From positions 1 through 32,134 of IMG/VR virus record IMGVR_UViG_3300034060_000806: a stretch of DNA of 32,134 nucleotides. One strand, 5' to 3'. Origin of the DNA: a virus. Taxonomy: Duplodnaviria; Caudoviricetes. A program made the translations under genes and the position numbers. Position 1 is the first letter of the stretch, and each line of letters opens with the position of its first letter. The notes below the pieces were generated by a model. That model was not told the origin of the DNA. It did not search any database and saw only the letters and a program-made list of their open reading frames with translations. This document shows positions 12,919 to 31,886 of this stretch, piece after piece.

Positions 12919-12951
12919 ATCCGTAAATCCCGTGCCATAGAAAGGATTCCG

Positions 12952-14989: not shown

Positions 14990-15058
14990 TTGCACACCTA
15001 ACCACGGTGTAGTAACTTTGCCTTGGAGGGAGAGGGACTTCCTCCGGAAAAGGACATC
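14990..15058 (+). promoter_or_regulatory. Promoter cassette A
   Basis: TTGCAC-17-TAACTT; CCTAACCACGGTGT in the spacer; hairpin GGAGGGAG-AGGGA-CTTCCTCC; SD GAAAAGG. Confidence 0.8.
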
Positions 15059-15397
15059 ATGAACCTTGCATACCGCCCCTACAACCAATTTGCAGCCGAT
15101 CTTGCCCCCGGTGGCAAGATCACCATTGATGACGCAGTGGTCGGCCATGTAGCGCACTACACGACGGAAAAATGGGGGGCCATGGCTAACGGCAAACCTA
15201 AAGGTCTCGGCCTCTTTGACAATCAGGCCGATGCGATCTTCGCAGTCATCGAAGCCGCCATCACTGAAGATGCACTGGAAACTCACTTCACCGCCATCGA
15301 CAAGTTCGTGACCCAGTTCCACACGGCCGAACAGCAGCAGCAACTCGCACAAATCGACGAAGCCATTGAAGCCGCCAAGTACGGAGAGTACGCATGA
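15059..15397 (+). CDS. Hypothetical protein
   Basis: ATG after the cassette A SD. Confidence 0.7.
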   Translation: MNLAYRPYNQFAADLAPGGKITIDDAVVGHVAHYTTEKWGAMANGKPKGLGLFDNQADAIFAVIEAAITEDALETHFTAIDKFVTQFHTAEQQQQLAQIDEAIEAAKYGEYA

Positions 15398-15618
15398 AAT
15401 TCGTCAAGACCGACAACCGAACCTTTGAAACCGAAGACGGGGCTTATGCGGTTTACCGCTACGCCAACAACAGTTACGCCCTGCAAACTCGTCTGACGTA
15501 CATCGTCTATGAAGGCAAAACCGCCGTCACGGACGAACTCGGCGACTTGGTCACTTTCAAATCAATCACAGATGCGAAGCAATTCGTTATCAACAAAGTA
15601 ATGGGGGTCGCACAATGA
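15394..15618 (+). CDS. Hypothetical protein
   Basis: ATGA overlap, GGAG RBS. Confidence 0.65.
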   Translation: MKFVKTDNRTFETEDGAYAVYRYANNSYALQTRLTYIVYEGKTAVTDELGDLVTFKSITDAKQFVINKVMGVAQ

Positions 15619-15932
15619 CCGACCAACAAATCCCTGAACCTAATTTCATGTCGGGATCCGATATGAATCCGAACCTGCCAATCGAAATCTCAATGTCCAT
15701 CCGAGAATGGTCGCTCATCTGCATGGCGCTCCGAGCCAAGGAACACGACATCGAAGATGCGATTGAAGGAATGCCATCCGAAGCCGCCGCCGCTCAACTC
15801 ACCCGCTACGCAGCGTCGTACACCCACATTCGAGTCTCCCTCCTGAACACCCTCTTGGACGCTGAAGAAAAGTGGATGGACAACGAAGCCCGTGAAATCG
15901 CCGAAATTGAAGAATGGAGAGAAGACCAATGA
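15615..15932 (+). CDS. Hypothetical acidic protein
   Basis: ATGA overlap. Confidence 0.65.
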   Translation: MTDQQIPEPNFMSGSDMNPNLPIEISMSIREWSLICMALRAKEHDIEDAIEGMPSEAAAAQLTRYAASYTHIRVSLLNTLLDAEEKWMDNEAREIAEIEEWREDQ

Positions 15933-16111
15933 AATACATCCTTGAATTCACCGAAAAGGCCACCTACAACTGTGAGGTCATCGCCAACTCCAAGGCTGAA
16001 GCAATCGCCAAGGTCAAGGCAGCCGACTTCGACGTAATGGATATGTGCTGTGGCGGAATGCCCTACGCCGTCAAGGTCATCGGAGTTGTCGAACAGGAAG
16101 TCGACGCCTGA
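15929..16111 (+). CDS. Hypothetical protein
   Basis: ATGA overlap, GGAG RBS; VIANSKAEAIAKV motif common in small phage proteins. Confidence 0.6.
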   Translation: MKYILEFTEKATYNCEVIANSKAEAIAKVKAADFDVMDMCCGGMPYAVKVIGVVEQEVDA

Positions 16112-16299
16112 TGCGATCACCTGAATTCACTGAAGCCGAACTCTTGGCCGTTGAACTGTCGCTCATGGAAACACTGACGATGCTCAACGCTCACATTCGA
16201 GCCTCAGAGCCCGACGATCCGGAGAACCAGCGTCGCCGCCAACTCATCATTCGAGTCCAGCAGGCTTTATTTAAAATCAGGTACACACATCAGCCTTGA
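16111..16299 (+). CDS. Hypothetical protein
   Basis: TGATG overlap with the upstream stop. Confidence 0.5.
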   Translation: MRSPEFTEAELLAVELSLMETLTMLNAHIRASEPDDPENQRRRQLIIRVQQALFKIRYTHQP

Positions 16300-16334
16300 T
16301 CGTGCGTTATCTCAGTGGAAGGCACCAACCATCC

Positions 16335-16399
16335 ACCACACCTAACCGTGGTGTGGTACAGTTACCAACGAGCGAAGGGATCGCTCAGGAAAGGCAAAT
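16335..16399 (+). promoter_or_regulatory. Promoter cassette B
   Basis: ACCACACC-TAACCGT-GGTGTGGT; extended -10 TGG-TACAGT; hairpin GAGCGA-AGGGA-TCGCTC; AGGAAAGG. Confidence 0.85.
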
Positions 16400-16822
16400 A
16401 TGCGAAAACTTCACACAAGCCCAAGGTTCGGCGGTTCGATAGACCTCTACGAACTTGTCGACACTTGTGACGGCGAGCCGTTGGGCGCTACTCACATCGG
16501 CACTGTTGTCGCTACCGAAGGTGGCTTCACCCACGGCAAGACAAATGCTCGCCCCTTTGAGACCCAAGGCGCTGCACTCGTCAACCTCGCAACGATCCAC
16601 TACCGAGGGATCCCGCAACACCTCCTTGACGCCATGCCCGAACTCATGGGCGCTGATGCGTTTGGCTCGGCGATGGACAAGATCGCCGCCGCTGCCAAGC
16701 GTGCAGGAGCCGCTCACGACGCCGCTACCGCACGCTGGGGCTCGAACCCGGCACCGGTTGTCGGCCGCTATGTCACAGGATCGTCAGACAATCCTCTTCA
16801 GGGCCCCGCCTCTCTGAATTGA
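16400..16822 (+). CDS. Hypothetical protein
   Basis: ATG 5 nt after GGAAAGG. Confidence 0.7.
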   Translation: MRKLHTSPRFGGSIDLYELVDTCDGEPLGATHIGTVVATEGGFTHGKTNARPFETQGAALVNLATIHYRGIPQHLLDAMPELMGADAFGSAMDKIAAAAKRAGAAHDAATARWGSNPAPVVGRYVTGSSDNPLQGPASLN

Positions 16823-16835
16823 GTGTGTCTGATGC

Positions 16836-16870
16836 GGCCCCGGGCTCGGACCCGCCCCAAGCCCGGGGCC
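16836..16870 (+). terminator. GC-rich stem-loop after gene
   Basis: GGCCCCGGGCT / AGCCCGGGGCC inverted repeat; no U-tract. Confidence 0.5.
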
Positions 16871-16878
16871 ACGCTCTC

Positions 16879-16944
16879 ACCACACCTAACCCCGGTGTGG
16901 TACCGTCTCCGACGAGGGCAGGGAGCCCTCAGGAAAGGCAAGAC
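16879..16944 (+). promoter_or_regulatory. Promoter cassette C
   Basis: CCACACC-TAACCCC-GGTGTGG-TACCGT; hairpin GAGGGC-AGGGA-GCCCTC; AGGAAAGG. Confidence 0.85.
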
Positions 16945-17229
16945 ATGACCAAAGTATTCGACACCCGAGACCTAAAAGCCCTCAACACCATCGCTGCCCT
17001 AGAGCAGAAGAGCCGAGTCCTCTCCCCGGGGCTGATGCGATTGCTTGACCCCGACGGTTACCACGTTGAGTTCTTCAGCATGATCCACAACGACATCGAA
17101 TTACGACTTGGCCTCATGGTCAAACTCGTCAACACCGACGAACCGGTCGAAGTGTTCCTAGACGTCGACCCCGACACCTACGACCACTACGGCTTCCAAC
17201 ACACCGACGTCTTGAAAGGAACGGCATGA
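16945..17229 (+). CDS. Hypothetical protein
   Basis: ATG after the cassette C SD (the ORF-track start at 16819 is unlikely). Confidence 0.7.
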   Translation: MTKVFDTRDLKALNTIAALEQKSRVLSPGLMRLLDPDGYHVEFFSMIHNDIELRLGLMVKLVNTDEPVEVFLDVDPDTYDHYGFQHTDVLKGTA

Positions 17230-17582
17230 CCAAGACAATGCAAGAACTCAACTACCTCGGCGGATGTCTTCATCCCAAGACCCCTGAAGGCCGTGCATTC
17301 CTTCACCGGGTCTACTGGGCTCACGTCGAAGAACTCCCCAACTACGAAGACCGTGAGGTCGGGCTCTACGAACTCGCCGAAGCCGCCGTGCCCGTCGCCA
17401 CCCAAGAACAGTGGATGGTGTTCGCTGACTTAGGTGGCTGGATGGTCGACGTCGACGAAGTCATGGGCGACGAAGGCACCCCTGCCGAACGAATGCGAAT
17501 CGCTTTGTGCATGGTCGCCGACCTACTCATGGCAGGACTCGAAGCAGAACACATTGAACAGGAAGGCAAGGTGACGGCATGA
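17226..17582 (+). CDS. Ocr-like acidic protein (candidate DNA mimic / anti-restriction)
   Basis: 118 aa, acidic; LYELAEAAVPVATQEQWMVFADLG resembles the T7 Ocr core [24 protein letters not shown] (recalled from memory). Confidence 0.5.
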   Translation: MTKTMQELNYLGGCLHPKTPEGRAFLHRVYWAHVEELPNYEDREVGLYELAEAAVPVATQEQWMVFADLGGWMVDVDEVMGDEGTPAERMRIALCMVADLLMAGLEAEHIEQEGKVTA

Positions 17583-17761
17583 CCCGAATGCCATCAATTG
17601 TTGGTATCGCTATCGACATGAAAACAGACAGGATCATGAGTTACGTCGGGAACCTCGGCGATGTCCGCAAATGGGCTGCCGAACTCTCAGACCCTCACAC
17701 CAGTATCCAAATCCGGGAAATCGGCGAAATCGTTATGTTCGTCGGAGAGGTGAAGTCATGA
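17579..17761 (+). CDS. Hypothetical protein
   Basis: ATGA overlap. Confidence 0.55.
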   Translation: MTRMPSIVGIAIDMKTDRIMSYVGNLGDVRKWAAELSDPHTSIQIREIGEIVMFVGEVKS

Positions 17762-18243
17762 AAGCCCGCAATCACGACAACCTGATGTCATGGCCTCACG
17801 GCTATTTCGAGGATTTTTACAGAGAAGACCGCCACCCCAATGCCGAGTCAATCCGGACGGCCGTCGAAACAACCCTGACCACGAGTCGGGCCGATGCGAT
17901 TGTCCGAGACAGTGGCAGTGCCTCGCAAACAGCGTGGCCCGAAGACGACCCTGAAGGCTTGCAGTGGAAGGTCAGCGAAATCCTGAGGCTCTTTCAGTCT
18001 CGTCCCGCAACTGGCGCTGTCGAAGAGTTCTTTGTCGGCGAGCGTCACATGGAGAGAAGCAAATATGTGAGCGTCACCGTTTGGGATCATTCGGTGAAGC
18101 ACTCCACGCCGGAAAACCCTGCCTGCTACACGACCGTTTATCACGTCGACGAATTGCCTCTCCATTACCAAGGCTATGAACTCCCGTATGCGAGCCGTGG
18201 CTTGCAAATCCGGGCTTTGTTCACCTTTGGTGTTGGTGATTGA
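17758..18243 (+). CDS. Hypothetical protein
   Basis: ATGA overlap, GAGGTG RBS. Confidence 0.6.
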   Translation: MKARNHDNLMSWPHGYFEDFYREDRHPNAESIRTAVETTLTTSRADAIVRDSGSASQTAWPEDDPEGLQWKVSEILRLFQSRPATGAVEEFFVGERHMERSKYVSVTVWDHSVKHSTPENPACYTTVYHVDELPLHYQGYELPYASRGLQIRALFTFGVGD

Positions 18244-18303
18244 CAGTTTCTACCGGGGTTGCCCTACACTGGGGTTGACCGATGCGACCACGGGAGGATC
18301 CCG
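18240..18303 (+). promoter_or_regulatory. Degenerate promoter/operator variant
   Basis: TTGACA-19-TACACT containing CTACCGGGGTTG; small hairpin CGGGA-GGA-TCCCG before ATG 18304. Confidence 0.4.
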
Positions 18304-18642
18304 ATGACCGATTTTCGTAACGTGATGACACACACTGCATTGCACGGTGAAGAGGCCGAAGTTGAGTGGGCCCATTCCCTTGTCGACGAACTCTCCGAGG
18401 CTTACGGGCTGCACTGGGCCGGTCTCATGGAAGATCCTGAGATCGAAGCCCAAGACGCTCTGTTTGCCACGACCGACGAGTTCAACCGGCTGGGGATCGA
18501 ACGCCTTCAGGCCACCAACATGGGTGATGCGATTGAACGGATCTTCCTGACCGCCCTGATTGAGAAGAATCCGGGGCTCGGGAATCTGTTGGAGCATGAG
18601 GCCGAGCAGCGAAAGCGGATCATCATCCCCACAGCGTCCTAA
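18304..18642 (+). CDS. Hypothetical acidic protein
   Basis: GGAGG RBS before ATG 18304. Confidence 0.6.
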   Translation: MTDFRNVMTHTALHGEEAEVEWAHSLVDELSEAYGLHWAGLMEDPEIEAQDALFATTDEFNRLGIERLQATNMGDAIERIFLTALIEKNPGLGNLLEHEAEQRKRIIIPTAS

Positions 18643-18693
18643 CTGTGGTAGAGTTTCAGTGAAGCGGAGGGACCGCTTCAGAAAGGCAGCAGC
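18629..18693 (+). promoter_or_regulatory. Promoter cassette D
   Basis: CCACAG-CGTCCTAA-CTGTGG-TAGAGT; hairpin TGAAGCGG-AGGGA-CCGCTTCA; GAAAGG. Confidence 0.8.
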
Positions 18694-18975
18694 ATGAACA
18701 CCATCACATCAGCCCAATTCAAGGAACTTACCCAAGTTCTCTACGCCAAAGACATCGTCGATTCGATGGATGACGTCGAAGTTGAGGAACATTCCGGGTA
18801 TGCCCCACGAATCGCAATCACGATGAGTCAAGGAATCGACATGGCGGTTCAATGCGGTGCAGCAATCGGCTCTATTCCGGAACTCGCTCATCTCGTCAAA
18901 AACGCTGTAGTCGAGGGCGATTGCCGGATCGGCACTGTGTACATCGACAACTACAAGGTGGAGGAAGCAGCATGA
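18694..18975 (+). CDS. Hypothetical protein
   Basis: ATG after the cassette D SD. Confidence 0.7.
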   Translation: MNTITSAQFKELTQVLYAKDIVDSMDDVEVEEHSGYAPRIAITMSQGIDMAVQCGAAIGSIPELAHLVKNAVVEGDCRIGTVYIDNYKVEEAA

Positions 18976-19178
18976 AAACAATCACCGTCGACCTCTCAAA
19001 GACGATCGGACAAGAGTCCGCCATTAAGGCGAACGGCTCGCCGATCTTCGACATTGAGGTGACGCTCCCGGCTGTCAAGGATGAACTGAACCCCATTGCA
19101 GGATTCGGTCGGGTCGTCTCAGCAGGACCGGTCAAAGGTCATGAGGTTCTGTTCACGGCCGATGCGATTGTCCAATAA
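18972..19178 (+). CDS. Hypothetical protein
   Basis: ATGA overlap, GGAGG RBS. Confidence 0.6.
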   Translation: MKTITVDLSKTIGQESAIKANGSPIFDIEVTLPAVKDELNPIAGFGRVVSAGPVKGHEVLFTADAIVQ

Positions 19179-19180
19179 CC

Positions 19181-19244
19181 ACCACACCTAACCCCGGTGT
19201 GGTATTCTTCAGGTGAAGGCAGGGAGCCTTCGGAAAGGCAGCAC
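19181..19244 (+). promoter_or_regulatory. Promoter cassette E
   Basis: CCACACC-TAACCCC-GGTGTGG-TATTCT; hairpin GAAGGC-AGGGA-GCCTTC; GGAAAGG. Confidence 0.85.
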
Positions 19245-19403
19245 ATGACCAAAACCAACAACGCCGAGGCGCTTGCCCGACTGTTCGAAATTTGGAACGT
19301 CGCTGTCGAAGCCGCACTCGCCAACGGATTCAGCAAGAAAGACGCCGCCGAGGCAGTCGGCATTTGGCTTGACCAGCAACTTGACGGAAAGGAATCAGCA
19401 TGA
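19245..19403 (+). CDS. Hypothetical protein
   Basis: ATG after the cassette E SD. Confidence 0.65.
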   Translation: MTKTNNAEALARLFEIWNVAVEAALANGFSKKDAAEAVGIWLDQQLDGKESA

Positions 19404-19657
19404 CCAAGATCCACGAAGGGTTCGAGTGGACCGTCGATATCGACCAGTCCGGAGAACTCAACTACCACGACCAGCCCACCCTCATCCTCTTCATCATCAA
19501 TGAGGAAACCGGTGAACCAATCAATGCGATTGGCGGAATCGACGTTGATTACACCGTCTCCGACCACGGCAACATCCACATCCACCCCGACCATGAGCCC
19601 TACATCGTCGACCTCGCCAACGCCTACATCGAAGATGCACTGGAGGAAGCAGCATGA
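19400..19657 (+). CDS. Hypothetical acidic protein
   Basis: GGAAAGGA RBS, ATGA overlap. Confidence 0.65.
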   Translation: MTKIHEGFEWTVDIDQSGELNYHDQPTLILFIINEETGEPINAIGGIDVDYTVSDHGNIHIHPDHEPYIVDLANAYIEDALEEAA

Positions 19658-19830
19658 CCCACCCACTCGCTAAGCACTGGACGCCCAACGATTCGGTCTG
19701 TGAAATCTGCGGCCAACAATTCGCAGAGAACATTCCCGAAGCCGATATGTGGCATCCCCAGTACGAAGAACACGGATCGCTAGTCGTTCACAAAGCCTGC
19801 GGAGAACAACGAGGAATGGAGTACTCATGA
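19654..19830 (+). CDS. Small Cys/His protein (58 aa, absent from the ORF track)
   Basis: MTHPLAKHW..CEICG..HKACG; GGAGG RBS; ATGA overlaps at both ends. Confidence 0.6.
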   Translation: MTHPLAKHWTPNDSVCEICGQQFAENIPEADMWHPQYEEHGSLVVHKACGEQRGMEYS

Positions 19831-20072
19831 GCATCAACTACCCAATTGACGTCACGATCGACGGTCTCTGCGACCTAATTGAAATGGCTGAAGGCGAAGT
19901 CTCTAAACCGGTCGGAGAACATTCTCTGCCAACAATCGGAGAAGAGTTTATCTGCATCACGCCAGCACAAGCCGATGCGATTCTCACCCAAGTCTCAAAC
20001 CTCCAAGAAGAAATCCTTGACCTCATGGAAATCATCAACCCGCTTGACCCCGACGAGGAAGGCGAATCATGA
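19827..20072 (+). CDS. Hypothetical acidic protein
   Basis: ATGA overlap, GGAG RBS. Confidence 0.6.
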   Translation: MSINYPIDVTIDGLCDLIEMAEGEVSKPVGEHSLPTIGEEFICITPAQADAILTQVSNLQEEILDLMEIINPLDPDEEGES

Positions 20073-20323
20073 ACGCACCACACGAATTTTTTGAACCTTT
20101 GACCTCCGAAGAAATTATCGATGCCATTGACCTCACCTATGAGGTTTTTGCCGACCCGATCCTCCGAGATTCGCTGCTCATGACGGCAGGGGACTACCAA
20201 CCTCACGTTCGAGACCGCATTACAGCCCTGTACCACGAAGCCGCCACAACCCTCGCCGTCCTAACCGCCGCCCTAGAAATCGCCGCCAAGACTCAAACCG
20301 TCTCGGCTGATGCGATTGCCTAG
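20069..20323 (+). CDS. Hypothetical protein
   Basis: ATGA overlap. Confidence 0.6.
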   Translation: MNAPHEFFEPLTSEEIIDAIDLTYEVFADPILRDSLLMTAGDYQPHVRDRITALYHEAATTLAVLTAALEIAAKTQTVSADAIA

Positions 20324-20355
20324 ACGCTTCCATCTCACCCCTGTAGAGTCGACCC

Positions 20356-20505
20356 ATGGCTATCGAACCGAAGAACGTCCCGTCTTACATCGCTGAAGAC
20401 GAGGATCTTGAAGGTATCCCCGACCCAAACCTCACCGGATCTCTTCGAGGCACCCTCGTTGACCATCACGGGCAACCGCTGGAGGTTCCTGATGGCGACC
20501 GCTGA
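20356..20505 (+). CDS. Small acidic ORF (49 aa), probably leaderless
   Basis: TAGACG-17-TAGAGT, then ATG 6 nt later; MAIEPKNVPSYIAEDEDL. Confidence 0.45.
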   Translation: MAIEPKNVPSYIAEDEDLEGIPDPNLTGSLRGTLVDHHGQPLEVPDGDR

Positions 20506-21247: not shown

Positions 21248-21254
21248 TAACACC

Positions 21255-21476
21255 ATGTCTGAAACCTCCGACCCTGATGCGATCAACCAAGACGCCCGAA
21301 TTGAACTCGGTGGCGTCCACATCGTTCGCATCTTGGAACCGGACGGCACCATGTCCCTAGAAATCAGCACCGACGACGAAGTCGACCCGTGGACTGCCAT
21401 CGGCATGATCCGAGTCGCTTTGCAATGGGAACTGGACGCTTATCCATTCCCCGATATCAACGACGACAACTTCTGA
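21255..21476 (+). CDS. Hypothetical acidic protein
   Basis: ATG 7 nt after the lysin stop. Confidence 0.55.
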   Translation: MSETSDPDAINQDARIELGGVHIVRILEPDGTMSLEISTDDEVDPWTAIGMIRVALQWELDAYPFPDINDDNF

Positions 21477-21584
21477 TGATCGAATGGTTCGGCTTTGCAG
21501 CGTTCTGTGCAGTGCTGGCCCTTTGGTGGATCATCGGCGGAATCGACGATTAAGTCTTCAACTACCACCCCCAAGGAGAAACAA

Positions 21585-22977: not shown

Positions 22978-23234
22978 ACGCTGAACACCTTTGGACGTGG
23001 ATCCTCTTCGCGTTCGAGATCGTCGGCGTCACTGGCACTTGGATTGTTGGGCAACGTCGCCTGTGGTGGGGATGGCTCATCATCCTGATTCATTCAATCC
23101 CTTGGGTCGTGTACAGCATCGTGTACAACAAGCCCGGGTTTATCGCTATGGCTGTTATGTGGTGGTCGGTGAATTTGGCGAATGCGATTAAGTGGCGCTC
23201 CGAAAAGAAATCCCTAACTGGGGTTGCGGACTAA
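22974..23234 (+). CDS. Small Trp-rich membrane protein (about 3 TM, PnuC-like)
   Basis: Three hydrophobic segments; ATGA overlap. Confidence 0.6.
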   Translation: MNAEHLWTWILFAFEIVGVTGTWIVGQRRLWWGWLIILIHSIPWVVYSIVYNKPGFIAMAVMWWSVNLANAIKWRSEKKSLTGVAD

Positions 23235-23290
23235 CCGCAGTTGCACTAGGTTGGCAGACAGCCGGTAAGGGACCGGCACGAAAGGAAACA
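23213..23290 (+). promoter_or_regulatory. Promoter cassette F with two operator-like boxes
   Basis: TAACTGGGGTTG and TAACCGCAGTTG; TTGCGG-17-TAGGTT; hairpin GCCGGT-AAGGG-ACCGGC; GAAAGG. Confidence 0.75.
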
Positions 23291-24436: not shown

Positions 24437-24551
24437 ACCCGTGGAGCGTCAGGGGATCCCCCATCTGCCCTGACGACTTCGACGGTCCAAGCGCAGGCCG
24501 TCTCAGTTTGCACGGGTTACTCCTTTCCCCTGAACTGAACCATATGCGTTA

Positions 24552-24592
24552 GAAGGCCCTCGGGAACCGCCTCCCGGGGGCCTTCGCTATTT
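24552..24592 (+). terminator. Intrinsic terminator-like hairpin
   Basis: 14-bp stem GAAGGCCCTCGGGA / TCCCGGGGGCCTTC followed by GCTATTT. Confidence 0.65.
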
Positions 24593-24617
24593 GCTGTTGG
24601 TGTTGTATCTTCCGTGC

Positions 24618-25484
24618 ATGACTGATTTCCATGCAGAACTTGTGGCCGATCTCAATGCGATTGGTGTTGAGGTTGAAAAGGCGAAGATGTCTCGCTCCGA
24701 GGCCGGTCGTGTAGCGGCGAACGCCCGTTGGGGAAACAAGGGTGGCGCTCCAAAGATGGTTGACTGGCGTTCGGCAGCAGGGATCTCTGCCGCTGAGCAA
24801 AAGTCCAATGCCCGCTCGAAGTCGGCGATGCAAGGCGCACGCACTCGGGCTCAGAACAAAGAAGCAAACACCCGCACCCCGGGGAGCATCCAAGCCGAAA
24901 TGGAACGCGCTGGCGTCCCCAAGAAAACGATTGATGCGATCACCAAAAACCCTCTCGGTTCTGCCTCAGCGAAAGCAACGGCGGCTCACATCAAACGAGT
25001 AAAAGACGTCAACGGTCTGTCTTCGAAGCAAAAGGCCAAGTACAACGAAAAAATGGATATGGCGACGCCCGGGATGAGCCCGGACATGAAGCATCAAGAC
25101 GCCATTACATACGCTTTAGATGCAAAGGCGGCTAGACCACGCGCTACTGCTGCCCGTGCCGCAGCATCCGCACGATTCAAAACAGTCGCCTCTCAAACTT
25201 CAGGCAAAAAAGTATTTACTTCTTCAACAGTTCCCAACCCGGGCATGAGGGCACCAGTATCCGCCCACAAAGAGGCTATTGCCGCGGCTGAATATCATTT
25301 AGAGAACTCGAAGTTAACTGGCGCTCAAACAAAGAAACTCAACAACACTGTCAGACGTTCAAAGGATGCGATTGATCGGCTTGAACGTCCCGAATACAAC
25401 GCCTTAAAAGACCGTGCATTAAGAGATATGCCAAGCCGAAACAACGGAGGAAGTCGTGGCACGGGATACCTTGTCGGAAGATGA
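24618..25484 (+). CDS. Basic Ala/Lys-rich protein sharing its leader and AANARWGN tag with the giant protein
   Basis: TATCTT lies 6 nt before the ATG (leaderless-type); MTDFHAELVADLNAIGVEVEKAKMSRSEAGRVAANARWGNKG. Confidence 0.7.
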   Translation: MTDFHAELVADLNAIGVEVEKAKMSRSEAGRVAANARWGNKGGAPKMVDWRSAAGISAAEQKSNARSKSAMQGARTRAQNKEANTRTPGSIQAEMERAGVPKKTIDAITKNPLGSASAKATAAHIKRVKDVNGLSSKQKAKYNEKMDMATPGMSPDMKHQDAITYALDAKAARPRATAARAAASARFKTVASQTSGKKVFTSSTVPNPGMRAPVSAHKEAIAAAEYHLENSKLTGAQTKKLNNTVRRSKDAIDRLERPEYNALKDRALRDMPSRNNGGSRGTGYLVGR

Positions 25485-25497
25485 GGTCACGGAGCCA

Positions 25498-28400
25498 ATG
25501 GCTAAAATTTTTCACGAACGGTTGATCGCTGACCTTGAAGCCATGGGTTATGCGATTGGCCCTGTCACTAAAGCCGACACTTACACACCCCCCGAGGGTG
25601 TGCAGTCTGCTGCCCGACGGGCCCTGAAACTCATTGCTGACGGTCACGCTGGTGACGGTTTTACTGATGTCGGCCGTAAACGTGCCTCAGACCTTGCTGC
25701 TGGCCGTTCAGTGAGCCTCAATACGGTGAAACGTATGCACTCCTATTTCGCCCGTCATGCCGTCGATAAGCAAGGCAAAGACTGGGACAACGCTGAGAAA
25801 CCATCGCCGGGGAAGGTTGCTTGGCTCGCTTGGGGTGGCGATGCCGGTAAGTCTTGGGCTGATGCGATTGTCGATCGTGACAACGTGACTAAGGCGTACA
25901 AACGGAAATATGCCACTCGCGAAGAGGCTGCACGCGCCGCCGCCAACGCAAGGTGGGGCAATCGAACGCCTGATGTACCTGAGGTCAAAGAAAAGCCGAC
26001 CAAAAAAGTCGATCCCGTCAAAGAGGCTTACCGTGCTTTCCAAGCGGAAGCCAAAAAGAAAAAGAACCTTGAAAAGACTTTGGAACTCGAAAAGGTTTGG
26101 CTGAATGCTGTCCGTGATAATGCTCCACCTAAGGGTGACTGGCGTGAATGCGATTCAATCAAAGAAGCAAAAGCACAGTTCTACGGTCAAGGTTGGATGA
26201 CCGAAGTTCATTTCGGGAAATTGTCTGTTCCGATGGTCAACGAAGTTTGCAAGACATGGAACGAACTCGGAACGAAATATCCGGAAGTTGCTGCTTACGT
26301 TGAAGTCCTTGGTGGGCATAGCGGTTTGCGTGATGCAGGGGAATTGCCGGTAAAAAAGTTTTCTGCCTTAGGCACCGCCTTTTACGGTCCTCGCACGATT
26401 GCCTTAAATGACTCTTATTCGCGTGACCAATACGAAGATTTTGCTCAACGTGCCGCAGCGACGGGGTTTCACCCTCCGAGAACCGGAGCGAAGGGTGACG
26501 GCGTCAGGTCCGTTCTTGTCCATGAGTTTGGGCACATGGTCGGTCGGAAAACGGGTTTGTCACAAACAGAGGCTGCTATCAAAGAAGTGCGTTCAAGTCG
26601 CCCTGCTGGCATTAGAGAAAAAACTGTAAAAGAATTCACCAAAACCAATCTTTCTGAATACGCCACTAGAAATTCTGACGAAGCCTTTGCTGAGGCCTTC
26701 ACCGAATACCACATGAGCCCTAACCCTCGGCCTCTTGCTACCGCAATCGTTGAACGCTCATTTGATGCGATTGGTAAGACCGAGTGGAAACGAGACACTG
26801 TCGCCAAGGCGTACAAACGGAAGTACGCAACTCGGGAGGAAGCGGCTCGGGCGGCCGCTAATGCTCGCTGGGGTAACCGGACGCCGAAGGTTGATGCTCC
26901 AGCCGAACCCGCCGGACCGGTAATCGAGCCGTGGGTCGATCAAAAATCCGCTGCCGCTGTCGACAGGGAATTCAATCGACGTTGGGGCAATCGCACATTG
27001 ATGCGTTTGACTGGCCTTTCACCCGAAGCCGCTAACGGCTCTGCCGAGGCAATCAACGAATTACTGACCCTGTATCCGGACACGACGTTGCATTTGGTTG
27101 GCACTCAAACCGGTATTTCACAGATGATTAAATCAGGTACCTATCCGCCCGGAACTCCTGAGAGTGTCAAGTCCCTTGCATCTCGGGGCCGTTACCCGAA
27201 AATGAATTTAAGTGAGGGTGGCGATTACTCCCCCCAGTTGCAATTCATTCGAATCAATAAGAACAATCACTCGTCCGATGGTTACGGAAGTGTTTCGACG
27301 CGACTCTCCGAGGAAACAGGTTGGTATACGCCAACTGGTTTTCCAGTTGGCGCAGGTCAACCTGAAGGCATTCGTCACGCAGCAAAACGATCGATGGTTC
27401 ATGAGTTCGGCCACGCGATTGACTTACACCCAAAAAGGAATTCTCTTCCAAGTGATTTCAGCAATTCAAACAATCCAATTACTAAAGCAACCCGAGAAAT
27501 CACTGGCGCTCCGGCAAGTTCCGCTGCGGCAAACAAAGCGGTTATCGAAACCAATATTGGAACCTACGCCGCCACCAATGCAAAAGAATTGTTTGCTGAG
27601 ACTTTCACCGAATACCACATGAACCCTGCGGCCCGTCCGTTGTCTGTTGATTTCGTGAAGTTTCGGATGGGTGAAATTGGGGTGCCTCTTGCTGCTCCGT
27701 CAACGCTTGGCACGATTGCTAAGGCTTACAAGCGGAAATATGGATCTCGGGCCGAGGCTGCCCGGGCCGCAGCGAACGCTCGCTGGGGAAACAAGGGCTC
27801 TGCAACACAGGAAACTTCCGCAGCCGATGATGCGGTTTACAATCCGTCACCCAAAGAGATGTTGGCCGGAAAAACTGCAAGCGGAAGAAAACTTAGAAAC
27901 ACGTTTTCCCAAACGCCGGTCAACGGTTACAACATAGAAACCGATCCTCGACCTTTCGGTTCAGCACCGGAACATTTGAAACGTGGCGCTCTTCTACTTC
28001 AAGGCACCGGACAGGCTTTATGGCAGGTCACTTCCGTCAAGGGAGACGTCTTGCGCTCAAAGCCGGTTTACGACAAATACGGACGCAAGATTTACAAGCC
28101 CGGGACTTCACAGTCATTGCTTCGTCAGTATTGGGATAATGTCACGGCCGTGAAAGGAAACGCTGCCGATCTTCCCGATCAAGACGATGCGATCGCTAAG
28201 GCGTACAAGCGGAAGTACGCGACTCGTGCTGAGGCTGCACGCGCGGCCGCGAATGCACGTTGGGGAAACAAAGGCTCAACTTCTACTGCTGCTCCTGCCG
28301 AGCCCAAGCCACAAATTACTAAAGAGACCGACAAGGTTCTCCGCCAGTTTGCCCAAGCCGGATATGCCGCACAAACCGGTATGGGCATGAGGCAACAAAA

Positions 28401-30294
28401 AGGCCAATTGCACGTCGGTGTTGACGACACATCTGTGACGATCACGGATCTTTATGCGATGCAAAAGTTTCCCCGGTCGGATCCCCGAGCCAAGGCTTTG
28501 TTGGCTTATCAACCTGAAGGCAAATCAAGTTTCACTGTCAAAATCGGCAAAGGAGGCAAAGTCGGTTTGCATCCGGAGCAAAACGGTCCTGATATGAACT
28601 CTTCAACAATTGATGAACTGACCAAAAAGTCCCGTGTCGACATTGGTGGCTTCAAACCAATCCCCACAATTGAGGGCAGCAAACAACAGTACGTTGCTAC
28701 CGAAGTCAAAAACCCTAAGACAAAAGAAACTGCAACTGTTTATTTGCGACGGGATCAGTACGACGGGATTCTCGCCAGTCAACCTCCCGGAACCGAATTG
28801 AAAGTCGGTTTTGGAGAAAATTATCGAGGCAAATCCCGGATACTTTCTGTTGTCGCTATCAATAATGGCGAGAAAGTCGCTGCCGTCATGGCTATGGGCC
28901 CAAATTTTGATCCCACTACTGGGGGCGATGGAAGGCTGACGGTGAAGAAGGTTGTCTCTGTTCACGATATGAGGGCACCTGTCGAAGACGATGCGATTAC
29001 CAAGTTTGTTTCTTCAAAGCGTTCTGCTGCCGGTCGTAAGGCTGCCGAGGCTCGATGGGGTAAGCGTCTAAAGAAATTCCCGAAAGCATTGGGACGGATG
29101 ACGCCACGGCAGCGAGCAAGTCTGATGCTCAGTGCCGATAAGCCTGCAAAGGTCAAATTCGTGGGCCCTGAAGGCAAGACAGAAGAGGCGCTCCGTGACG
29201 ACGCCGGAAATGTTGTAACTGAGCGCATGAACCCTTCGACCGAGTACAAGCGACGTCTTTACGGGTCGGATTCTTGGGTTCAAACGGGCAAGGGCCCGGT
29301 GCTTGGCCCGAAGTTGAAGCGCAAGAAGAAGGTTCAGGGAAACGCTGTTCGAGAACTTGCACGGGTGCGGTTTGCCGATGCTCCTGTTCAAAAGGCTGGT
29401 GATCGTTCTGCTGCTGGTCGTAAGGCTGCCGAGGCTCGATGGGCAGGTCATCAAAAAAAACAAACTCAATCATCACCGCCTGCTGACAAACCAATTTTCA
29501 GCAGAGAAGAACACGCTATTGCTATTGCCTTGGTTGAACGAGTAGCGATTGAAGAACCGGCCCTGACGAAACAAATGGAAGATTTCGCCGAGGAATTTGG
29601 TGGTGAACTGACCGGTTTGCAGAACCGATTGAAGAAGTCGGGCTCTTTGGCTCGTAAAATCCATATGGATGCGATTGAAAAGAGTCTTTCTCCGGAGGCT
29701 GCCGCTGCTCAAATAAAAGATGCTGTCCGGTACACAATGATTCTGCCTGACACTAACTACGGTTTGTCGGGCCAAGCAATTGTTGATAGGCTCAGAGCCG
29801 AAGGAAATGACGTAAAAGTCAAAAATACTTGGTCCCCTGATTCTGAATACAAGGGGATTAACTTGCAGGTGTACAACAAGAAAAAAGGATTTTGGTCTGA
29901 ACTGCAACTGCATACGCCGCAATCATTTGCTACAAAAAACGAAACTCACAAGATTTATGAGTTAGAGCGGGTTGAAAAAGATCCCAAGAAAAAAGCGTTG
30001 TACACAGCGCAGATGAAAGCGGCCTCCGGCAGTTTGCGTATTCCGCCCCGGGCCGAAGTCATCAAATCAAAGGAGGACAGCATGAAAGAAATTTGGTGGA
30101 AACGGGTCTCAGACGATGGGGAAACTGTTTACAGCGTGTGGCACGCTCACGGCCCTGAATCGATGATGGAAAAGAATTATGCCGGTGAATGGGTCGACGC
30201 TTCCGAGCAGTACTTCACTCCGTTCGAAGAGACCGATTTCATTGAAATTTCAGAAGACGAAGTCGAAGCCGTCTTGAAAGACTTGACGGCCTAA
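25498..30294 (+). CDS. Giant multidomain (polyvalent-type) protein: conserved phage N-domain, two HEXXH zincins, unknown domains, RelA/SpoT-like nucleotidyltransferase, acidic tail
   Basis: About 1598 aa; HEFGH at 26521 and 27400, each followed by YA..N..E.FAE.F; RLKK..SLARKI, DAVRYT, YKGIN, ELQLHT, HKIYE; six repeated basic linkers. Confidence 0.85.
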   Translation: MAKIFHERLIADLEAMGYAIGPVTKADTYTPPEGVQSAARRALKLIADGHAGDGFTDVGRKRASDLAAGRSVSLNTVKRMHSYFARHAVDKQGKDWDNAEKPSPGKVAWLAWGGDAGKSWADAIVDRDNVTKAYKRKYATREEAARAAANARWGNRTPDVPEVKEKPTKKVDPVKEAYRAFQAEAKKKKNLEKTLELEKVWLNAVRDNAPPKGDWRECDSIKEAKAQFYGQGWMTEVHFGKLSVPMVNEVCKTWNELGTKYPEVAAYVEVLGGHSGLRDAGELPVKKFSALGTAFYGPRTIALNDSYSRDQYEDFAQRAAATGFHPPRTGAKGDGVRSVLVHEFGHMVGRKTGLSQTEAAIKEVRSSRPAGIREKTVKEFTKTNLSEYATRNSDEAFAEAFTEYHMSPNPRPLATAIVERSFDAIGKTEWKRDTVAKAYKRKYATREEAARAAANARWGNRTPKVDAPAEPAGPVIEPWVDQKSAAAVDREFNRRWGNRTLMRLTGLSPEAANGSAEAINELLTLYPDTTLHLVGTQTGISQMIKSGTYPPGTPESVKSLASRGRYPKMNLSEGGDYSPQLQFIRINKNNHSSDGYGSVSTRLSEETGWYTPTGFPVGAGQPEGIRHAAKRSMVHEFGHAIDLHPKRNSLPSDFSNSNNPITKATREITGAPASSAAANKAVIETNIGTYAATNAKELFAETFTEYHMNPAARPLSVDFVKFRMGEIGVPLAAPSTLGTIAKAYKRKYGSRAEAARAAANARWGNKGSATQETSAADDAVYNPSPKEMLAGKTASGRKLRNTFSQTPVNGYNIETDPRPFGSAPEHLKRGALLLQGTGQALWQVTSVKGDVLRSKPVYDKYGRKIYKPGTSQSLLRQYWDNVTAVKGNAADLPDQDDAIAKAYKRKYATRAEAARAAANARWGNKGSTSTAAPAEPKPQITKETDKVLRQFAQAGYAAQTGMGMRQQKGQLHVGVDDTSVTITDLYAMQKFPRSDPRAKALLAYQPEGKSSFTVKIGKGGKVGLHPEQNGPDMNSSTIDELTKKSRVDIGGFKPIPTIEGSKQQYVATEVKNPKTKETATVYLRRDQYDGILASQPPGTELKVGFGENYRGKSRILSVVAINNGEKVAAVMAMGPNFDPTTGGDGRLTVKKVVSVHDMRAPVEDDAITKFVSSKRSAAGRKAAEARWGKRLKKFPKALGRMTPRQRASLMLSADKPAKVKFVGPEGKTEEALRDDAGNVVTERMNPSTEYKRRLYGSDSWVQTGKGPVLGPKLKRKKKVQGNAVRELARVRFADAPVQKAGDRSAAGRKAAEARWAGHQKKQTQSSPPADKPIFSREEHAIAIALVERVAIEEPALTKQMEDFAEEFGGELTGLQNRLKKSGSLARKIHMDAIEKSLSPEAAAAQIKDAVRYTMILPDTNYGLSGQAIVDRLRAEGNDVKVKNTWSPDSEYKGINLQVYNKKKGFWSELQLHTPQSFATKNETHKIYELERVEKDPKKKALYTAQMKAASGSLRIPPRAEVIKSKEDSMKEIWWKRVSDDGETVYSVWHAHGPESMMEKNYAGEWVDASEQYFTPFEETDFIEISEDEVEAVLKDLTA
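25885..28269 (+). repeat. Four 26-aa repeats [VI]xKAYKRKYxxRxEAARAAANARWGN
   Basis: At 25885-25962, 26800-26877, 27715-27792 and 28192-28269; the copies use different synonymous codons. Confidence 0.95.
29020..29443 (+). repeat. 40-bp near-identical direct repeat encoding RSAAGRKAAEARW
   Basis: 29020-29059 versus 29404-29443, one mismatch. Confidence 0.9.
30082..30294 (+). CDS. Putative in-frame internally initiated 70-aa acidic protein (immunity-like)
   Basis: AAGGAGG (30070-76) lies 5 nt before an in-frame ATG immediately after the RelA/SpoT-like domain. Confidence 0.55.
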   Translation: MKEIWWKRVSDDGETVYSVWHAHGPESMMEKNYAGEWVDASEQYFTPFEETDFIEISEDEVEAVLKDLTA

Positions 30295-30351
30295 CCGGGG
30301 TAGGGTATCTTTGTGGTGCGGGGAGCGGGGGCTCCTCCGGAAAGGGACATC
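30283..30351 (+). promoter_or_regulatory. Promoter cassette G
   Basis: TTGACG-17-TATCTT with CCTAACCGGGGTAG in the spacer; hairpin GGGGAGC-GGGG-GCTCCTC; GGAAAGG. Confidence 0.8.
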
Positions 30352-31098
30352 ATGTACAAGCGTTTCGCAGGGCTCTCAGCACCGAAACGATGCGTTTCCA
30401 CTGCCTGCTACCGCTGCGGCGGCACCGGCTACGTCCACCCATGGGGCACCTGTTTCCGCTGCGGTGGTGCCCAAGTCGACCCGAGCCACAAGGATTTCGG
30501 TTACCCGCAAACGTGGACCGACGCCGAAATCGAAGAATGGGACCGGGCTCGTCGGGCCAAGAACGAAAAGGCCCGGGTCGCCCGGGAGGAACGTCTCGCC
30601 GTCAAGAAAGCCGCCAAGTTCGCTGAGAACCTCGCCAAGTGCCCCGAGTTAGCCGACATCAAAGATTACGGCGGAATCCTCGGAGACCTTCGGGAAAAGG
30701 CTGAAAAGTACGATCTCAGCCCCGCTCAGTTTGAACTGGTCGCCAAACTGGTGGCTCAGGACAAGGCTTATGCGATTGCCAAGGCCGCTCAGGTCGAAGC
30801 CGACGCTCACCTCATCTACATCGGCGAGGTCGGCGAGAAGATCACGATCACTGGCACAGTGAAGGTCGCCAAGGCAATTGACACTCAGTTCGGTCTCAGT
30901 CGCCTCCTGATCGTCGCTGACACCGACGGCAACCTCATCAAAGCCTTCACCACCGCCCAGTTCGTTTGGGATCTCGAAGCCGGTGACGAGGTCACGCTGA
31001 TCGCCACGGTCAAGGCCCATGAGGTCTACGAGGATGTCAAGCAGACGGTCATCACCCGGCCGAAACTGATTGAACATAAGCAACTGGTGGATGCCTGA
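30352..31098 (+). CDS. Zn-finger (CxxCxGxG) plus C-terminal OB-fold-like protein
   Basis: CYRCGGTG..CFRCGG; C-terminal IGEVGEKITITGTV..GDEVTLIATVKAH..KQTVITRPK. Confidence 0.7.
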   Translation: MYKRFAGLSAPKRCVSTACYRCGGTGYVHPWGTCFRCGGAQVDPSHKDFGYPQTWTDAEIEEWDRARRAKNEKARVAREERLAVKKAAKFAENLAKCPELADIKDYGGILGDLREKAEKYDLSPAQFELVAKLVAQDKAYAIAKAAQVEADAHLIYIGEVGEKITITGTVKVAKAIDTQFGLSRLLIVADTDGNLIKAFTTAQFVWDLEAGDEVTLIATVKAHEVYEDVKQTVITRPKLIEHKQLVDA

Positions 31099-31204
31099 TG
31101 CCACAAGCCTCGTATCGGGCCCTGTATGCGTTTCTCTCGGATTCGCTTGGGGCCCGACGGGCAATTCCCCTGTTGCCCCGGTCGTTTCGACCACGGCCCC
31201 GTCA

Positions 31205-31269
31205 CACACCTAACCGTGGTGTGGTACACTTGTGTCGGGAGGAAAGGGATCCTCCCCGAAAGGAACCTC
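31205..31269 (+). promoter_or_regulatory. Promoter cassette H
   Basis: CACACC-TAACCGT-GGTGTGG-TACACT; hairpin GGGAGGA-AAGGGA-TCCTCCC; GAAAGGA. Confidence 0.85.
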
Positions 31270-31512
31270 ATGGCAATGACACCCGAACAACGTAAGGCAG
31301 CAGCCGCCAAGGCCGTCGCCACTCGCCAAGCCCGCAAGGCAGCAGCCGCCGCCGATGCGATTGGCAAGATCAAACAACGTGCCGGATTCTCCGCCTACGC
31401 CTGCCCCCAATGCCGCAACACGGTTTACGTCAAATCCGCCAAGGCCGACGTTTACCACCGCTGCCCATCGTTCGGCCTCAAATGGGTCGACTACATCCTG
31501 ATCTCCGAATGA
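31270..31512 (+). CDS. Small basic protein with a Zn-ribbon-like C-terminus
   Basis: ATG after cassette H; Ala/Lys helix followed by CPQC..HRC. Confidence 0.65.
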   Translation: MAMTPEQRKAAAAKAVATRQARKAAAAADAIGKIKQRAGFSAYACPQCRNTVYVKSAKADVYHRCPSFGLKWVDYILISE

Positions 31513-31523
31513 AAGGAAACCTG

Positions 31524-31832
31524 ATGCGATTAACTCGCTTCAAACGCAAGTACATACTTCGCACCGAGTTCGATGCCGATGGGACATGGACGCCAGTGAC
31601 GGTCGACGAAGTGTTCGGCCGCAACCCTCAGATCACCGACGCTCACGCTGCTTTCGCTAAGTACGCAGTGGTTGACGAATGGAACCAGTACGGCCCTACC
31701 GAGATCCGGGGCCGCACCTACCGTCTAGCCGTGTACAAGAAGCGGGGCTCTCGGATGCGATTGATTCAAACTGAGCAGATCCCCCCGACTCGCCCGGTTG
31801 ACTTGACTAACGTCGAATGGCCCAAGCCCTAA
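31524..31832 (+). CDS. Hypothetical protein
   Basis: GAAAGGA RBS at 31511. Confidence 0.6.
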   Translation: MRLTRFKRKYILRTEFDADGTWTPVTVDEVFGRNPQITDAHAAFAKYAVVDEWNQYGPTEIRGRTYRLAVYKKRGSRMRLIQTEQIPPTRPVDLTNVEWPKP

Positions 31833-31886
31833 CCCCGGTGTGGTACCGTTGGAGTGAAGGGCAGGGGCTCTTCGGAAAGGAACAGC
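31827..31886 (+). promoter_or_regulatory. Promoter cassette I
   Basis: CCCTAACCCC-GGTGTGG-TACCGT; hairpin GAAGGGC-AGGG-GCTCTTC; GGAAAGGA. Confidence 0.8.

What the first reader, a model, noticed from the sequence alone, without database searches (positions are those of the whole stretch)
15025..31873. Covarying 5'-leader RNA hairpin with a conserved AGGGA-type loop (CsrA/Rsm-site-like) in all nine cassettes
Seen: GGAGGGAG-AGGGA-CTTCCTCC, GAGCGA-AGGGA-TCGCTC, GAGGGC-AGGGA-GCCCTC, TGAAGCGG-AGGGA-CCGCTTCA, GAAGGC-AGGGA-GCCTTC, GCCGGT-AAGGG-ACCGGC, GGGGAGC-GGGG-GCTCCTC, GGGAGGA-AAGGGA-TCCTCCC and GAAGGGC-AGGG-GCTCTTC. Stem sequences differ but always pair, with G-U wobbles on the + strand, which indicates RNA-level selection. 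The hairpin starts near the predicted +1 and ends just before the SD. Established: CsrA/RsmE binds A(N)GGA hairpin loops. Inference: a cis-regulatory RNA motif I do not recognise, acting in translational control, boxB-like antitermination or 5' protection; two loops lack GGA, which weakens a strict CsrA model.
Basis: partly seen in the sequence, partly recalled or inferred. Interest (0 to 1): 0.8.

Follow-up and report, generated by a model that had tools for sequence, protein, structure and literature searches.

The report
Hairpin caps on phage early messages
An uncultured virus, likely of actinobacteria, repeats one small unit (predicted promoter, short hairpin with a G-rich loop, ribosome-binding site) before nine blocks of mostly unknown genes; the hairpin is predicted to sit at the very start of each message and likely shields it from decay, and its loop is more likely a retained purine run than a CsrA switch.

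Summary
Observation confirmed. A fold-blind scan finds exactly nine promoter + Shine-Dalgarno + start units in this actinophage-like contig, and all nine carry the hairpin. Shuffles give 0.02 such hairpins against 9. Stems covary (54 of 54 inner pairs). No Rfam match.

The stem starts within about 2 nt of the predicted +1, so the best reading is a 5'-terminal stabilising stem-loop in PeSL-like early cassettes.

The loop is conserved, but its invariant is GGG (9/9; 32/47 in relatives), not GGA (6/9; 29/47). Sister phages use the same promoter with no hairpin, and there the GGGA purine run is the ribosome site itself. Unrelated phages build the same cap with A-rich loops (GGA in 5/36).

CsrA is possible but weak. 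AGGGA is a reported high-affinity RsmE loop, yet csrA was found in 0/28 related phage records and in 1/66 genomes of the best-guess host family. The host is not established, and another GC-matched family has csrA in 66/91.

This scan noted similar cassettes before on other phages. New variant of a known kind.

The parts
15023..15047 (+). Hairpin 1, loop AGGGA 15033-15037; -10 TAACTT 15013-15018; SD core 15049; ATG 15059 (112-aa unknown ORF), directly after the terminase large subunit gene
   Evidence: (-13.1 kcal/mol, z -1.96)
16370..16386 (+). Hairpin 2, loop AGGGA 16376-16380; extended -10 TGG-TACAGT 16357-16362; SD 16390; ATG 16400 (140 aa, unknown)
   Evidence: -8.8, z -3.14
16914..16930 (+). 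Hairpin 3, loop AGGGA 16920-16924; -10 TACCGT 16901-16906; SD 16934; ATG 16945 (94 aa, unknown)
   Evidence: -11.8, z -3.04
18660..18680 (+). Hairpin 4, loop AGGGA 18668-18672; -10 TAGAGT 18649-18654; SD 18682; ATG 18694 (93 aa, unknown)
   Evidence: -12.3, z -2.77
19214..19232 (+). Hairpin 5, loop AGGGA 19221-19225; -10 TATTCT 19203-19208; SD 19234; ATG 19245 (52 aa, unknown)
   Evidence: -9.6, z -2.29
23261..23277 (+). Hairpin 6, loop AAGGG 23267-23271; -10 TAGGTT 23247-23252; SD 23281; ATG 23291 (381 aa, phrog_1362, unknown function)
   Evidence: -10.9, z -3.43
30320..30337 (+). Hairpin 7, loop GGGG 30327-30330; -35 TTGACG 30283, -10 TATCTT 30306-30311; SD 30341; ATG 30352 (248 aa, phrog_2319, unknown function)
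   Evidence: -14.6, z -1.70
31237..31256 (+). Hairpin 8, loop AAGGGA 31244-31249; -10 TACACT 31225-31230; SD 31259; ATG 31270 (80 aa, unknown)
   Evidence: -12.5, z -0.45
31855..31874 (+). Hairpin 9, loop AGGG 31863-31866; -10 TACCGT 31844-31849; SD 31876; ATG 31887 (86 aa when read on into the identical record G009)
   Evidence: -9.9, z -2.63
14992..15018 (+). Predicted sigma-A-type promoter 1 with the spacer motif CTAACC-N2-GGTGT(A/G)G in front of the -10 box, part of an imperfect palindrome
16336..16362 (+). Predicted promoter 2; perfect palindrome ACCACACC-N7-GGTGTGGT running into the extended -10
   Evidence: sequence
16880..16906 (+). Predicted promoter 3, same palindromic spacer motif
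   Evidence: sequence
18630..18654 (+). Predicted promoter 4, shortened spacer motif (CCTAAC-TGTGG) before the extended -10
19182..19208 (+). Predicted promoter 5, same palindromic spacer motif
   Evidence: sequence
23229..23252 (+). Predicted promoter 6, degenerate spacer motif
30283..30311 (+). Predicted promoter 7, TTGACG-17-TATCTT with the CCTAACC spacer motif
31204..31230 (+). Predicted promoter 8, palindromic spacer motif
31828..31849 (+). Predicted promoter 9, spacer motif and extended -10

Best explanation
The nine hairpins are real and covarying, and are likely 5'-terminal stem-loops that cap predicted early mRNAs and would slow 5'-end-dependent decay while leaving the ribosome site open. 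Each belongs to a repeated cassette head: predicted sigma-A promoter, hairpin from about +1, SD, ATG. A paired 5' end would block pyrophosphate removal and entry of RNase J or RNase E (inferred from mycobacterial DrrS). The AGGGA-type loop is most likely the exposed end of a purine run covering +1 to about +13. Sister phages use that run unpaired as their SD; here it is kept because a loop free of C and U offers no RNase E site and a purine-rich start favours promoter escape (both inferred). Shown: sequence, pairing, position relative to -10 and SD, distribution. Inferred: start sites, early timing, stabilisation, the reason for the loop sequence.
For: 9 of 9 fold-blind promoter units carry the hairpin. 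Predicted unpaired 5' nucleotides are 0-1 in 9/9 window units, 44/47 hairpins of relatives and 33/36 hairpins of three unrelated phages. The SD core is unpaired in the leader folds, apart from a 2-bp helix touching the last G in one. Stem sequence is free and pairing is kept: 22 pentaloop members, 90.5% of cells paired, 45 two-sided changes, 0/500 shuffles. Unrelated phages G002, G004 and G005 have the same promoter-hairpin-SD arrays with mostly A-rich loops, GGA in 5/36. Loops are purine-only in 38/47 and U-free in 43/47. Positions +1 to +12 are 74-94% purine, loops end at +11 to +14 in 38/47, and arm and loop lengths trade off (rho -0.48; rows not independent). Among units with the same CTAAC-type spacer, 39 (23 records) lack the hairpin and 18 (9 records) have it, with equal purine content at +1..+12 (0.80 vs 0.81) and GGG in 25/39 vs 16/18. 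An RNase J-family gene is present in 5/5 genomes tested of the best-guess host family, 4 over the cut-off. Passages read: a 5' stem-loop stabilises RNA in mycobacteria and added unpaired nucleotides undo this (PMC5360333); mycobacterial RNase E cuts 5' of C (PMC10641625); purine content of the initial sequence correlates with productive yield (PMC5961368).
Against: No start site or half-life was measured. GGG and GGGA are enriched beyond purine composition: GGG 32/47 vs 12.8 expected, GGGA 25 vs 6.5, and in the subset found through terminase alone GGG 15/27 vs 6.1. AGGGA recurs on unrelated stems in distant phages. A pure stabiliser does not predict this, and shared descent explains only part of it. 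Loops pair with the anti-SD no better than shuffled loops (-5.42 vs -5.20 kcal/mol, 46/300). With 30 coding bases added, predicted stem probability falls to 0.03 and 0.17 in two of nine units. Many sister cassettes do without the hairpin, so it is not essential to the design.
Confidence: 0.6

Rival explanations
1. The GGG(A) loop is a recognition site for an unidentified phage or host RNA-binding protein or nuclease, which would switch all early cassettes together (for instance cutting the loop to remove the cap late in infection).
For: GGG in 9/9 window loops and enriched 2.5-fold over composition in relatives. The same loop sits on unrelated stems in at least three separate clades of a quick terminase tree.
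Against: Loop length varies from 3 to 9 nt. Orthologous genes carry loops with and without GGG. Hairpin-less sister leaders hold the same run as their SD. No candidate RNA-binding protein among 50 ORFs scanned, though the record is about 39% complete.
Confidence: 0.16
2. The loop is a CsrA/RsmE site: one half of the dimer binds the loop and the other a GGA at the SD, repressing or protecting the message.
For: AGGGA pentaloops are reported as high-affinity RsmE targets (PMC4005645, passage). GGA in 29/47 loops vs 17.4 expected. A second unpaired GGA lies near the SD in 6 of the 7 leaders with a GGA in or at the edge of the loop. csrA occurs in actinobacteria: 56/301 of one class sample, 64/151, 66/91 in one family with phage-like GC. 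It is also in MAG G030, which carries a 58%-identical terminase, beside fliW.
Against: Three of nine loops lack GGA while all keep GGG; 18/47 loops in relatives lack GGA. csrA in 0/28 phage records, 6 of them at least 90% complete. csrA in 1/66 genomes of the family holding the closest bacterial match to the phage's Rpf-type enzyme, and 0/81 of the genus whose MAG holds a 62% terminase contig. GGA near an SD is expected from the SD itself.
Confidence: 0.09
3. The hairpin mainly serves translation: it insulates the SD from mispairing, and the SD-like loop and 5' arm act as a ribosome standby or entry site.
For: The stem ends 0-4 nt before the SD and leaves it open. In some relatives loop and SD are the same 8-mer. 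Weak intermediate forms have the SD inside the loop (L280, L289).
Against: No anti-SD pairing signal beyond composition (anti-SD confirmed in 8 genomes). A 4-5 nt loop on a 6-8 bp stem can hardly form a helix with rRNA (inference). Insulation does not need the stem to start exactly at +1.
Confidence: 0.1
4. The hairpin acts on transcription coming from upstream: a PeSL-type attenuator or terminator, or a boxB-like antitermination signal.
For: PeSL stem-loops are G-tract/loop/C-tract, one subclass lies downstream of -10, and one tested stem-loop terminated transcription (PMC2839356 section 14). No U-tract terminator was called next to these cassette heads.
Against: The stems are followed by purines, not U. 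A terminator at +20 would also stop the cassette's own transcript. Each short gene block has its own promoter, so antitermination has little to do. No N-like protein was found.
Confidence: 0.05

Closest known systems
PeSL (promoter-early stem-loop) cassettes of T4-type phages (PMC2839356, PMC4122927)
   Same: Repeated sigma-70-type promoter + stem-loop (G-tract, loop, C-tract) + SD + start codon before small genes of unknown function; one of five subclasses has the stem-loop downstream of -10.
   Different: Here the phage is an actinophage-like tailed virus. The stem begins at the predicted +1, so it lies inside the transcript rather than just before it. No conserved loop sequence is mentioned for PeSLs in the sections I read (figures not seen). 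Termination and cassette recombination, shown for PeSLs, were not shown here.
5'-terminal stem-loop stabilisers (mycobacterial DrrS, PMC5360333; E. coli ompA as cited there)
   Same: Stem starting at the first nucleotide, sequence-free stem, 0-1 unpaired 5' bases predicted.
   Different: Nine copies in one phage with a conserved purine loop; stabilisation not measured here.
CsrA/RsmE sites, A(N)GGA(X) hairpin loops (PMC4005645)
   Same: Five loops are AGGGA, stated there to bind RsmE with high affinity; a second GGA often lies near the SD.
   Different: GGG, not GGA, is invariant; three loops lack GGA; the SD is outside the hairpin; CsrA is not found in related phages or in most genomes of the best-guess host family.
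Polypurine/SD-like 5' stabilisers (SP82 as cited in PMC7509114; mycobacterial katG, PMC2358910)
   Same: The hairpin-less sister leaders are short polypurine SD tracts starting at +1; the 5' arm and loop here resemble them.
   Different: In this phage the tract is paired into a stem and a second SD follows.
Start-associated sequences (SAS/ESAS) of cluster K mycobacteriophages (PMC3203893)
   Same: Repeated element at translation starts of actinophage genes, with an upstream inverted repeat.
   Different: SAS is a fixed 13-mer; here the stem sequence varies and only pairing and the loop are kept.

Membership tests
PeSL cassette | Repeated sigma-70-type promoter + stem-loop + SD + start codon before small unknown genes | tested here: met
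   9 of 9 units; 7 of the 9 first genes have no PHROG or Pfam family or only a sub-cut-off hit, 2 match PHROGs of unknown function
PeSL cassette | Stem-loop terminates or attenuates upstream transcription | not testable with these tools
   No U-tract after the stems and none called as terminators; needs a reporter
PeSL cassette | Genes gained, lost or swapped by recombination between cassette heads | tested here: inconclusive
   The cassette after terL leads non-homologous genes in the window, G001 and G003. The head differs more than its flanks in strain G011 (75% vs 96%). But none of three indels in G011 maps to a cassette head, and L471 is colinear
5'-terminal stem-loop stabiliser | Stem begins within about 2 nt of the RNA 5' end | tested here: inconclusive
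   Met for predicted start sites (0-1 unpaired nt in 9/9 and 44/47), but start sites are inferred from -10 spacing, not mapped
5'-terminal stem-loop stabiliser | Pairing conserved, stem sequence free | tested here: met
   54/54 inner pairs; 45 two-sided changes in 22 members
5'-terminal stem-loop stabiliser | Lengthens RNA half-life | not testable with these tools
   Needs stem mutants and decay measurements
CsrA/RsmE binding site | GGA unpaired in the loop | tested here: not met
   6 of 9 in the window, 29 of 47 in relatives, 14 of 27 in the terminase-only subset; GGG is the better-kept motif. Met for individual loops, not for the element as a class
CsrA/RsmE binding site | CsrA encoded by phage or host | tested here: inconclusive
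   0/28 phage records; 1/66 in the best-guess host family; 66/91 in another GC-matched family; host not established
ANTAR target RNA | Two hairpins with six-base loops (A1, G4), 2-25 nt apart (PMC8164766) | tested here: not met
   No second hairpin in any of nine leaders; only one loop has six bases
Any Rfam 15 family | Covariance-model match | tested here: not met
   0 at gathering score; 2 matches at E 6.9 and 8.7, neither on a hairpin

The most novel reading that the evidence does not exclude
The GGG(A) loop on the 5' cap is a shared docking site for one protein (an unknown phage or host factor, or CsrA in a host that has it). The early cassettes of a widespread group of uncultured actinobacterial phages would then form a single post-transcriptional regulon, built by folding an ancestral ribosome-site purine run into a hairpin loop.
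Probability: 0.22. Interest if true: 0.7.

Novelty: new variant of a known kind. Interest (0 to 1): 0.38.

Why it matters
If the best reading holds, this extends the PeSL-type cassette head to uncultured actinobacterial phages. It also gives a natural series running from naked purine leader, through weak hairpin with the SD in its loop, to capped leader with a second SD, which shows how 5' stabilisers can arise. The 35-nt leaders are directly testable parts for expression in actinobacteria. If the loop binds a protein, it would be an RNA-level switch over a whole early gene set in a group with few known regulators of that kind.

Tried and rejected
Rfam: nothing at gathering score, nothing on the hairpins at E up to 10.

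Reads: no RNA holder listed for 15000-20400; this says nothing on expression.

Annotated phages: blastn of one cassette head against INPHARED gave no match. A G003-type hairpin+SD pattern found nothing in genome contigs; a Dit alignment found no relative there.

Covariance model R1 recovers eight of nine hairpins as its top eight hits and the GGGG one at E 8. Six are in its training set, so it adds little; it was not run on other loci.

Operator or cruciform reading of the hairpin: rejected because the arms share no sequence and wobble pairs fall on the + strand. The palindrome in the promoter spacer is the better operator candidate. ANTAR: no second hairpin. Anti-SD switch by the 3' arm: leader folds keep the main stem. 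Loop as a better-than-composition anti-SD match: not seen.

Host from the polar repeat: the 7-mer is not over-represented in 17 stretches of genome G688 under an order-5 Markov model (60 vs 61), so it does not name a host.

The SPP1 (PMC6316719), cluster O (PMC4351075) and phage 7-11 (PMC8948821) passages described no such leader hairpin. The careful terminase tree did not finish; only the quick tree was read and no clade test was run.
Full report
Setting. The window is a 32,134-base linear virus record, estimated 39% complete, 54% GC, with the called genes on the + strand. It encodes tape measure, Dit and minor tail proteins, a replication initiator, HNH, an Rpf-type transglycosylase, GP88, RusA, three small-terminase-like proteins, a large terminase, a CHAP endolysin and a 1,612-aa head-morphogenesis protein (50 ORFs scanned). 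The terminase is 52-55% identical to those of Arthrobacter phages such as Ottawa and Laroye. Records G009 and G006 overlap the window, or each other, at 100% identity and continue the same phage, adding two more cassettes with loops AGGG and AGGGA.

The observation. All nine hairpins are present. Each follows a TAnnnT box by 4-8 nt and ends 0-4 nt before AAAGG and an ATG. Purine-loop GGG hairpins followed by AAAGG number 9, against 0.02 in 200 shuffles. A scan for promoter-like box + SD + start that ignores folding returns exactly these nine units in the window, so the hairpins were not cherry-picked. Registered on the loop, 54 of 54 inner pairs are standard (36 after shuffling; 0 of 10,000), with three G-U pairs and no A-C. 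The leaders fold at -8.8 to -14.6 kcal/mol, z -0.45 to -3.43, with the SD open except for a 2-bp helix on its last G in one. With 30 coding bases added, stem probability stays at 0.78 or more in seven units and drops to 0.03 and 0.17 in two. Rfam has no match.

Relatives. Loop-biased pattern scans and loop-blind terminase searches (best 80 of 161 viral and best 80 of 341 metagenome stretches kept, 3 in genomes) gave records that I scanned promoter-first and loop-blind. In 19 related records there are 47 distinct hairpins; I kept all that passed the filter, including a few probable false ones with pyrimidine loops. Loops are purine-only in 38 and U-free in 43. GGG occurs in 32 (12.8 expected from shuffled loop letters), GGA in 29 (17.4), GGGA in 25 (6.5). 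In the 27 found through terminase alone, GGG is in 15 (6.1) and GGA in 14 (9.1). The 22 five-base-loop members give 90.5% paired cells and 45 two-sided changes, 0 of 500 shuffles. These were chosen by folding, are related, and three rows were misaligned by MAFFT and left in. A quick terminase tree of 75 rows (loci under 10 kb and partial proteins left out) places hairpin-rich phages in three separate well-supported clades on a weak backbone (no clade test).

Position. Counting from the -10 box, position 6 is a pyrimidine in 89% and positions 7-18 (predicted +1 to +12) are 74-94% purine. Predicted unpaired 5' bases are 0-1 in 44 of 47. Loops end at +11 to +14 in 38 of 47, and short arms go with long loops (rho -0.48). 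So 5' arm plus loop form one purine run of about 13 nt, followed by the pyrimidine arm and the SD.

Two natural controls. First, three unrelated phages (G002, G004, G005) have arrays of the same promoter-hairpin-SD design: 36 hairpins, 33 with 0-1 unpaired 5' bases, but mostly A-rich loops with GGA in only 5. An unbiased sample of consensus phage promoters (75 distinct leaders from the first 80 of 122 loci) had 24 leaders folding at -4 kcal/mol or better, with no dominant loop. Second, terminase relatives use the same CTAAC-type promoter without any hairpin: 39 units in 23 records against 18 with a hairpin in 9 records. In these the leader is a short purine tract that is itself the SD, with the same purine content at +1..+12 and GGG in 25 of 39. 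G020 and G012 carry both forms, with similar first bases; L280 and L289 have weak stems with the SD inside the loop. The simplest history (inference) is that the hairpin arose by adding a complementary arm and a second SD behind an ancestral purine leader, which left the AGGGA-type loop. No orthologous gene pair cleanly showed the same gene behind both forms. Loops do not pair with the anti-SD better than shuffled loops (anti-SD read from 8 of 151 genomes).

CsrA. AGGGA pentaloops are stated to bind RsmE tightly (PMC4005645, passages), so the lead was sound. But GGG is the invariant, and csrA was found in 0 of 28 phage records. The host is not established. The genus of MAG G031, which holds a 1.8-kb terminase contig, had 0 of 81. 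Against this, csrA is in 56 of 301 genomes of G030's class (four of the 56, G038, G060, G065 and G220, are unpublished genomes), 64 of 151 of G031's order, 66 of 91 of G630's family, and in G030 itself beside fliW, a 73%-GC genome with a 58% terminase.

Mechanism. Most likely the stem sequesters the first nucleotide and slows 5'-end-dependent decay, as shown for DrrS in mycobacteria, where added unpaired bases destabilise the RNA (PMC5360333, passages). A purine-only loop offers no C for mycobacterial-type RNase E (PMC10641625, passages), and a purine-rich initial sequence is linked to productive initiation (PMC5961368, passages). These two points explain purines, not specifically GGG; that residue is what keeps the protein-binding rival alive. 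'Early' is inferred from the host-type promoters and small unknown genes.

Comparison. PeSLs are repeated promoter + stem-loop + SD units with G-tract/C-tract stems, one subclass downstream of -10 (PMC2839356, passages and section 14; PMC4122927, parts 1-2 of 3). I saw no figures or supplements of these papers, and their alignments could show loop conservation I did not see. PeSL-type recombination is not shown here: the cassette after terL leads different genes in three phages and its head is 75% identical in a strain whose flanks are 96% identical, but the indels in that strain do not fall at cassette heads. Other papers: PMC3203893, PMC8164766, PMC7509114, PMC4351075, PMC6316719, PMC8948821 (passages), PMC2358910 (abstract and outline). 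Ten literature searches turned up no description of this GGGA-loop leader in actinophages; the library lacks most subscription papers. Earlier AI notes of this scan describe like cassettes in other phages; none concerned this genome or sequence.

Verdict. A real, covarying RNA element; most likely a 5' cap hairpin in PeSL-like cassettes, with a loop inherited from a purine leader. New variant of a known kind, interest 0.38, with a 22% chance that the loop is a protein site.

Noticed in passing
window 1-32134, + strand: A dispersed polar repeat, ATGCGAT(TG): 49 copies on + against 3 on -, 47 inside genes against 3.7 expected after synonymous resampling, never closer than 137 nt (0 of 20,000 random placements). 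Also strand-biased in G001, G003, G012, G023-G026 and L427, which are the hairpin-rich phages. It resembles an oriented protein-binding site (stoperator- or Chi-like; comparison recalled) and may deserve more attention than the hairpin.
   Followed up: partly
window 14992-15018, 16336-16362, 16880-16906, 19182-19208, 31204-31230, 31828-31849: A palindromic motif in the promoter spacer (CTAACC-N2-GG, extended to ACCACACC-N7-GGTGTGGT in three copies), shared by many terminase relatives with or without the hairpin. Candidate operator; the small HTH protein at 11368-11586 (phrog_15152) is a candidate binder.
   Followed up: partly
L472 (G016), L443-L445 (G015), L434 (G020): Arrays of the same promoter with very short, almost pure-purine leaders (16-24 nt) and no hairpin.
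   Followed up: yes
window 25456-30294: 1,612-aa head-morphogenesis-type protein with several short basic repeats ending in ARWG, shared with the ORF at 24618, and two zincin-like metallopeptidase stretches (PF07737 at residues 346-425, weak PF06167 at 646-724).
   Followed up: no
window 11591-13371: Three consecutive small-terminase-like ORFs (phrog_4102 twice, phrog_309); the middle one has a C-terminal extension of about 180 aa with no family match. Conserved in G001.
   Followed up: no
window 14980-33127 (into G009): The cassette blocks, the endolysin and the large head protein lie between terL and a 477-aa ORF that looks like the portal (my reading, not scanned), so early-type cassettes are interleaved with packaging genes.
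   Followed up: no
window 24552-24585 and about 16835-16870: A strong intrinsic terminator after the cassette 6 gene and a GC-rich inverted repeat just before promoter 3 (seen in the sequence).
   Followed up: no
G002 (L217, L453), G005 (L207): Unrelated phages with arrays of about 19 and 12 promoter-hairpin-SD units with A-rich loops.
   Followed up: partly
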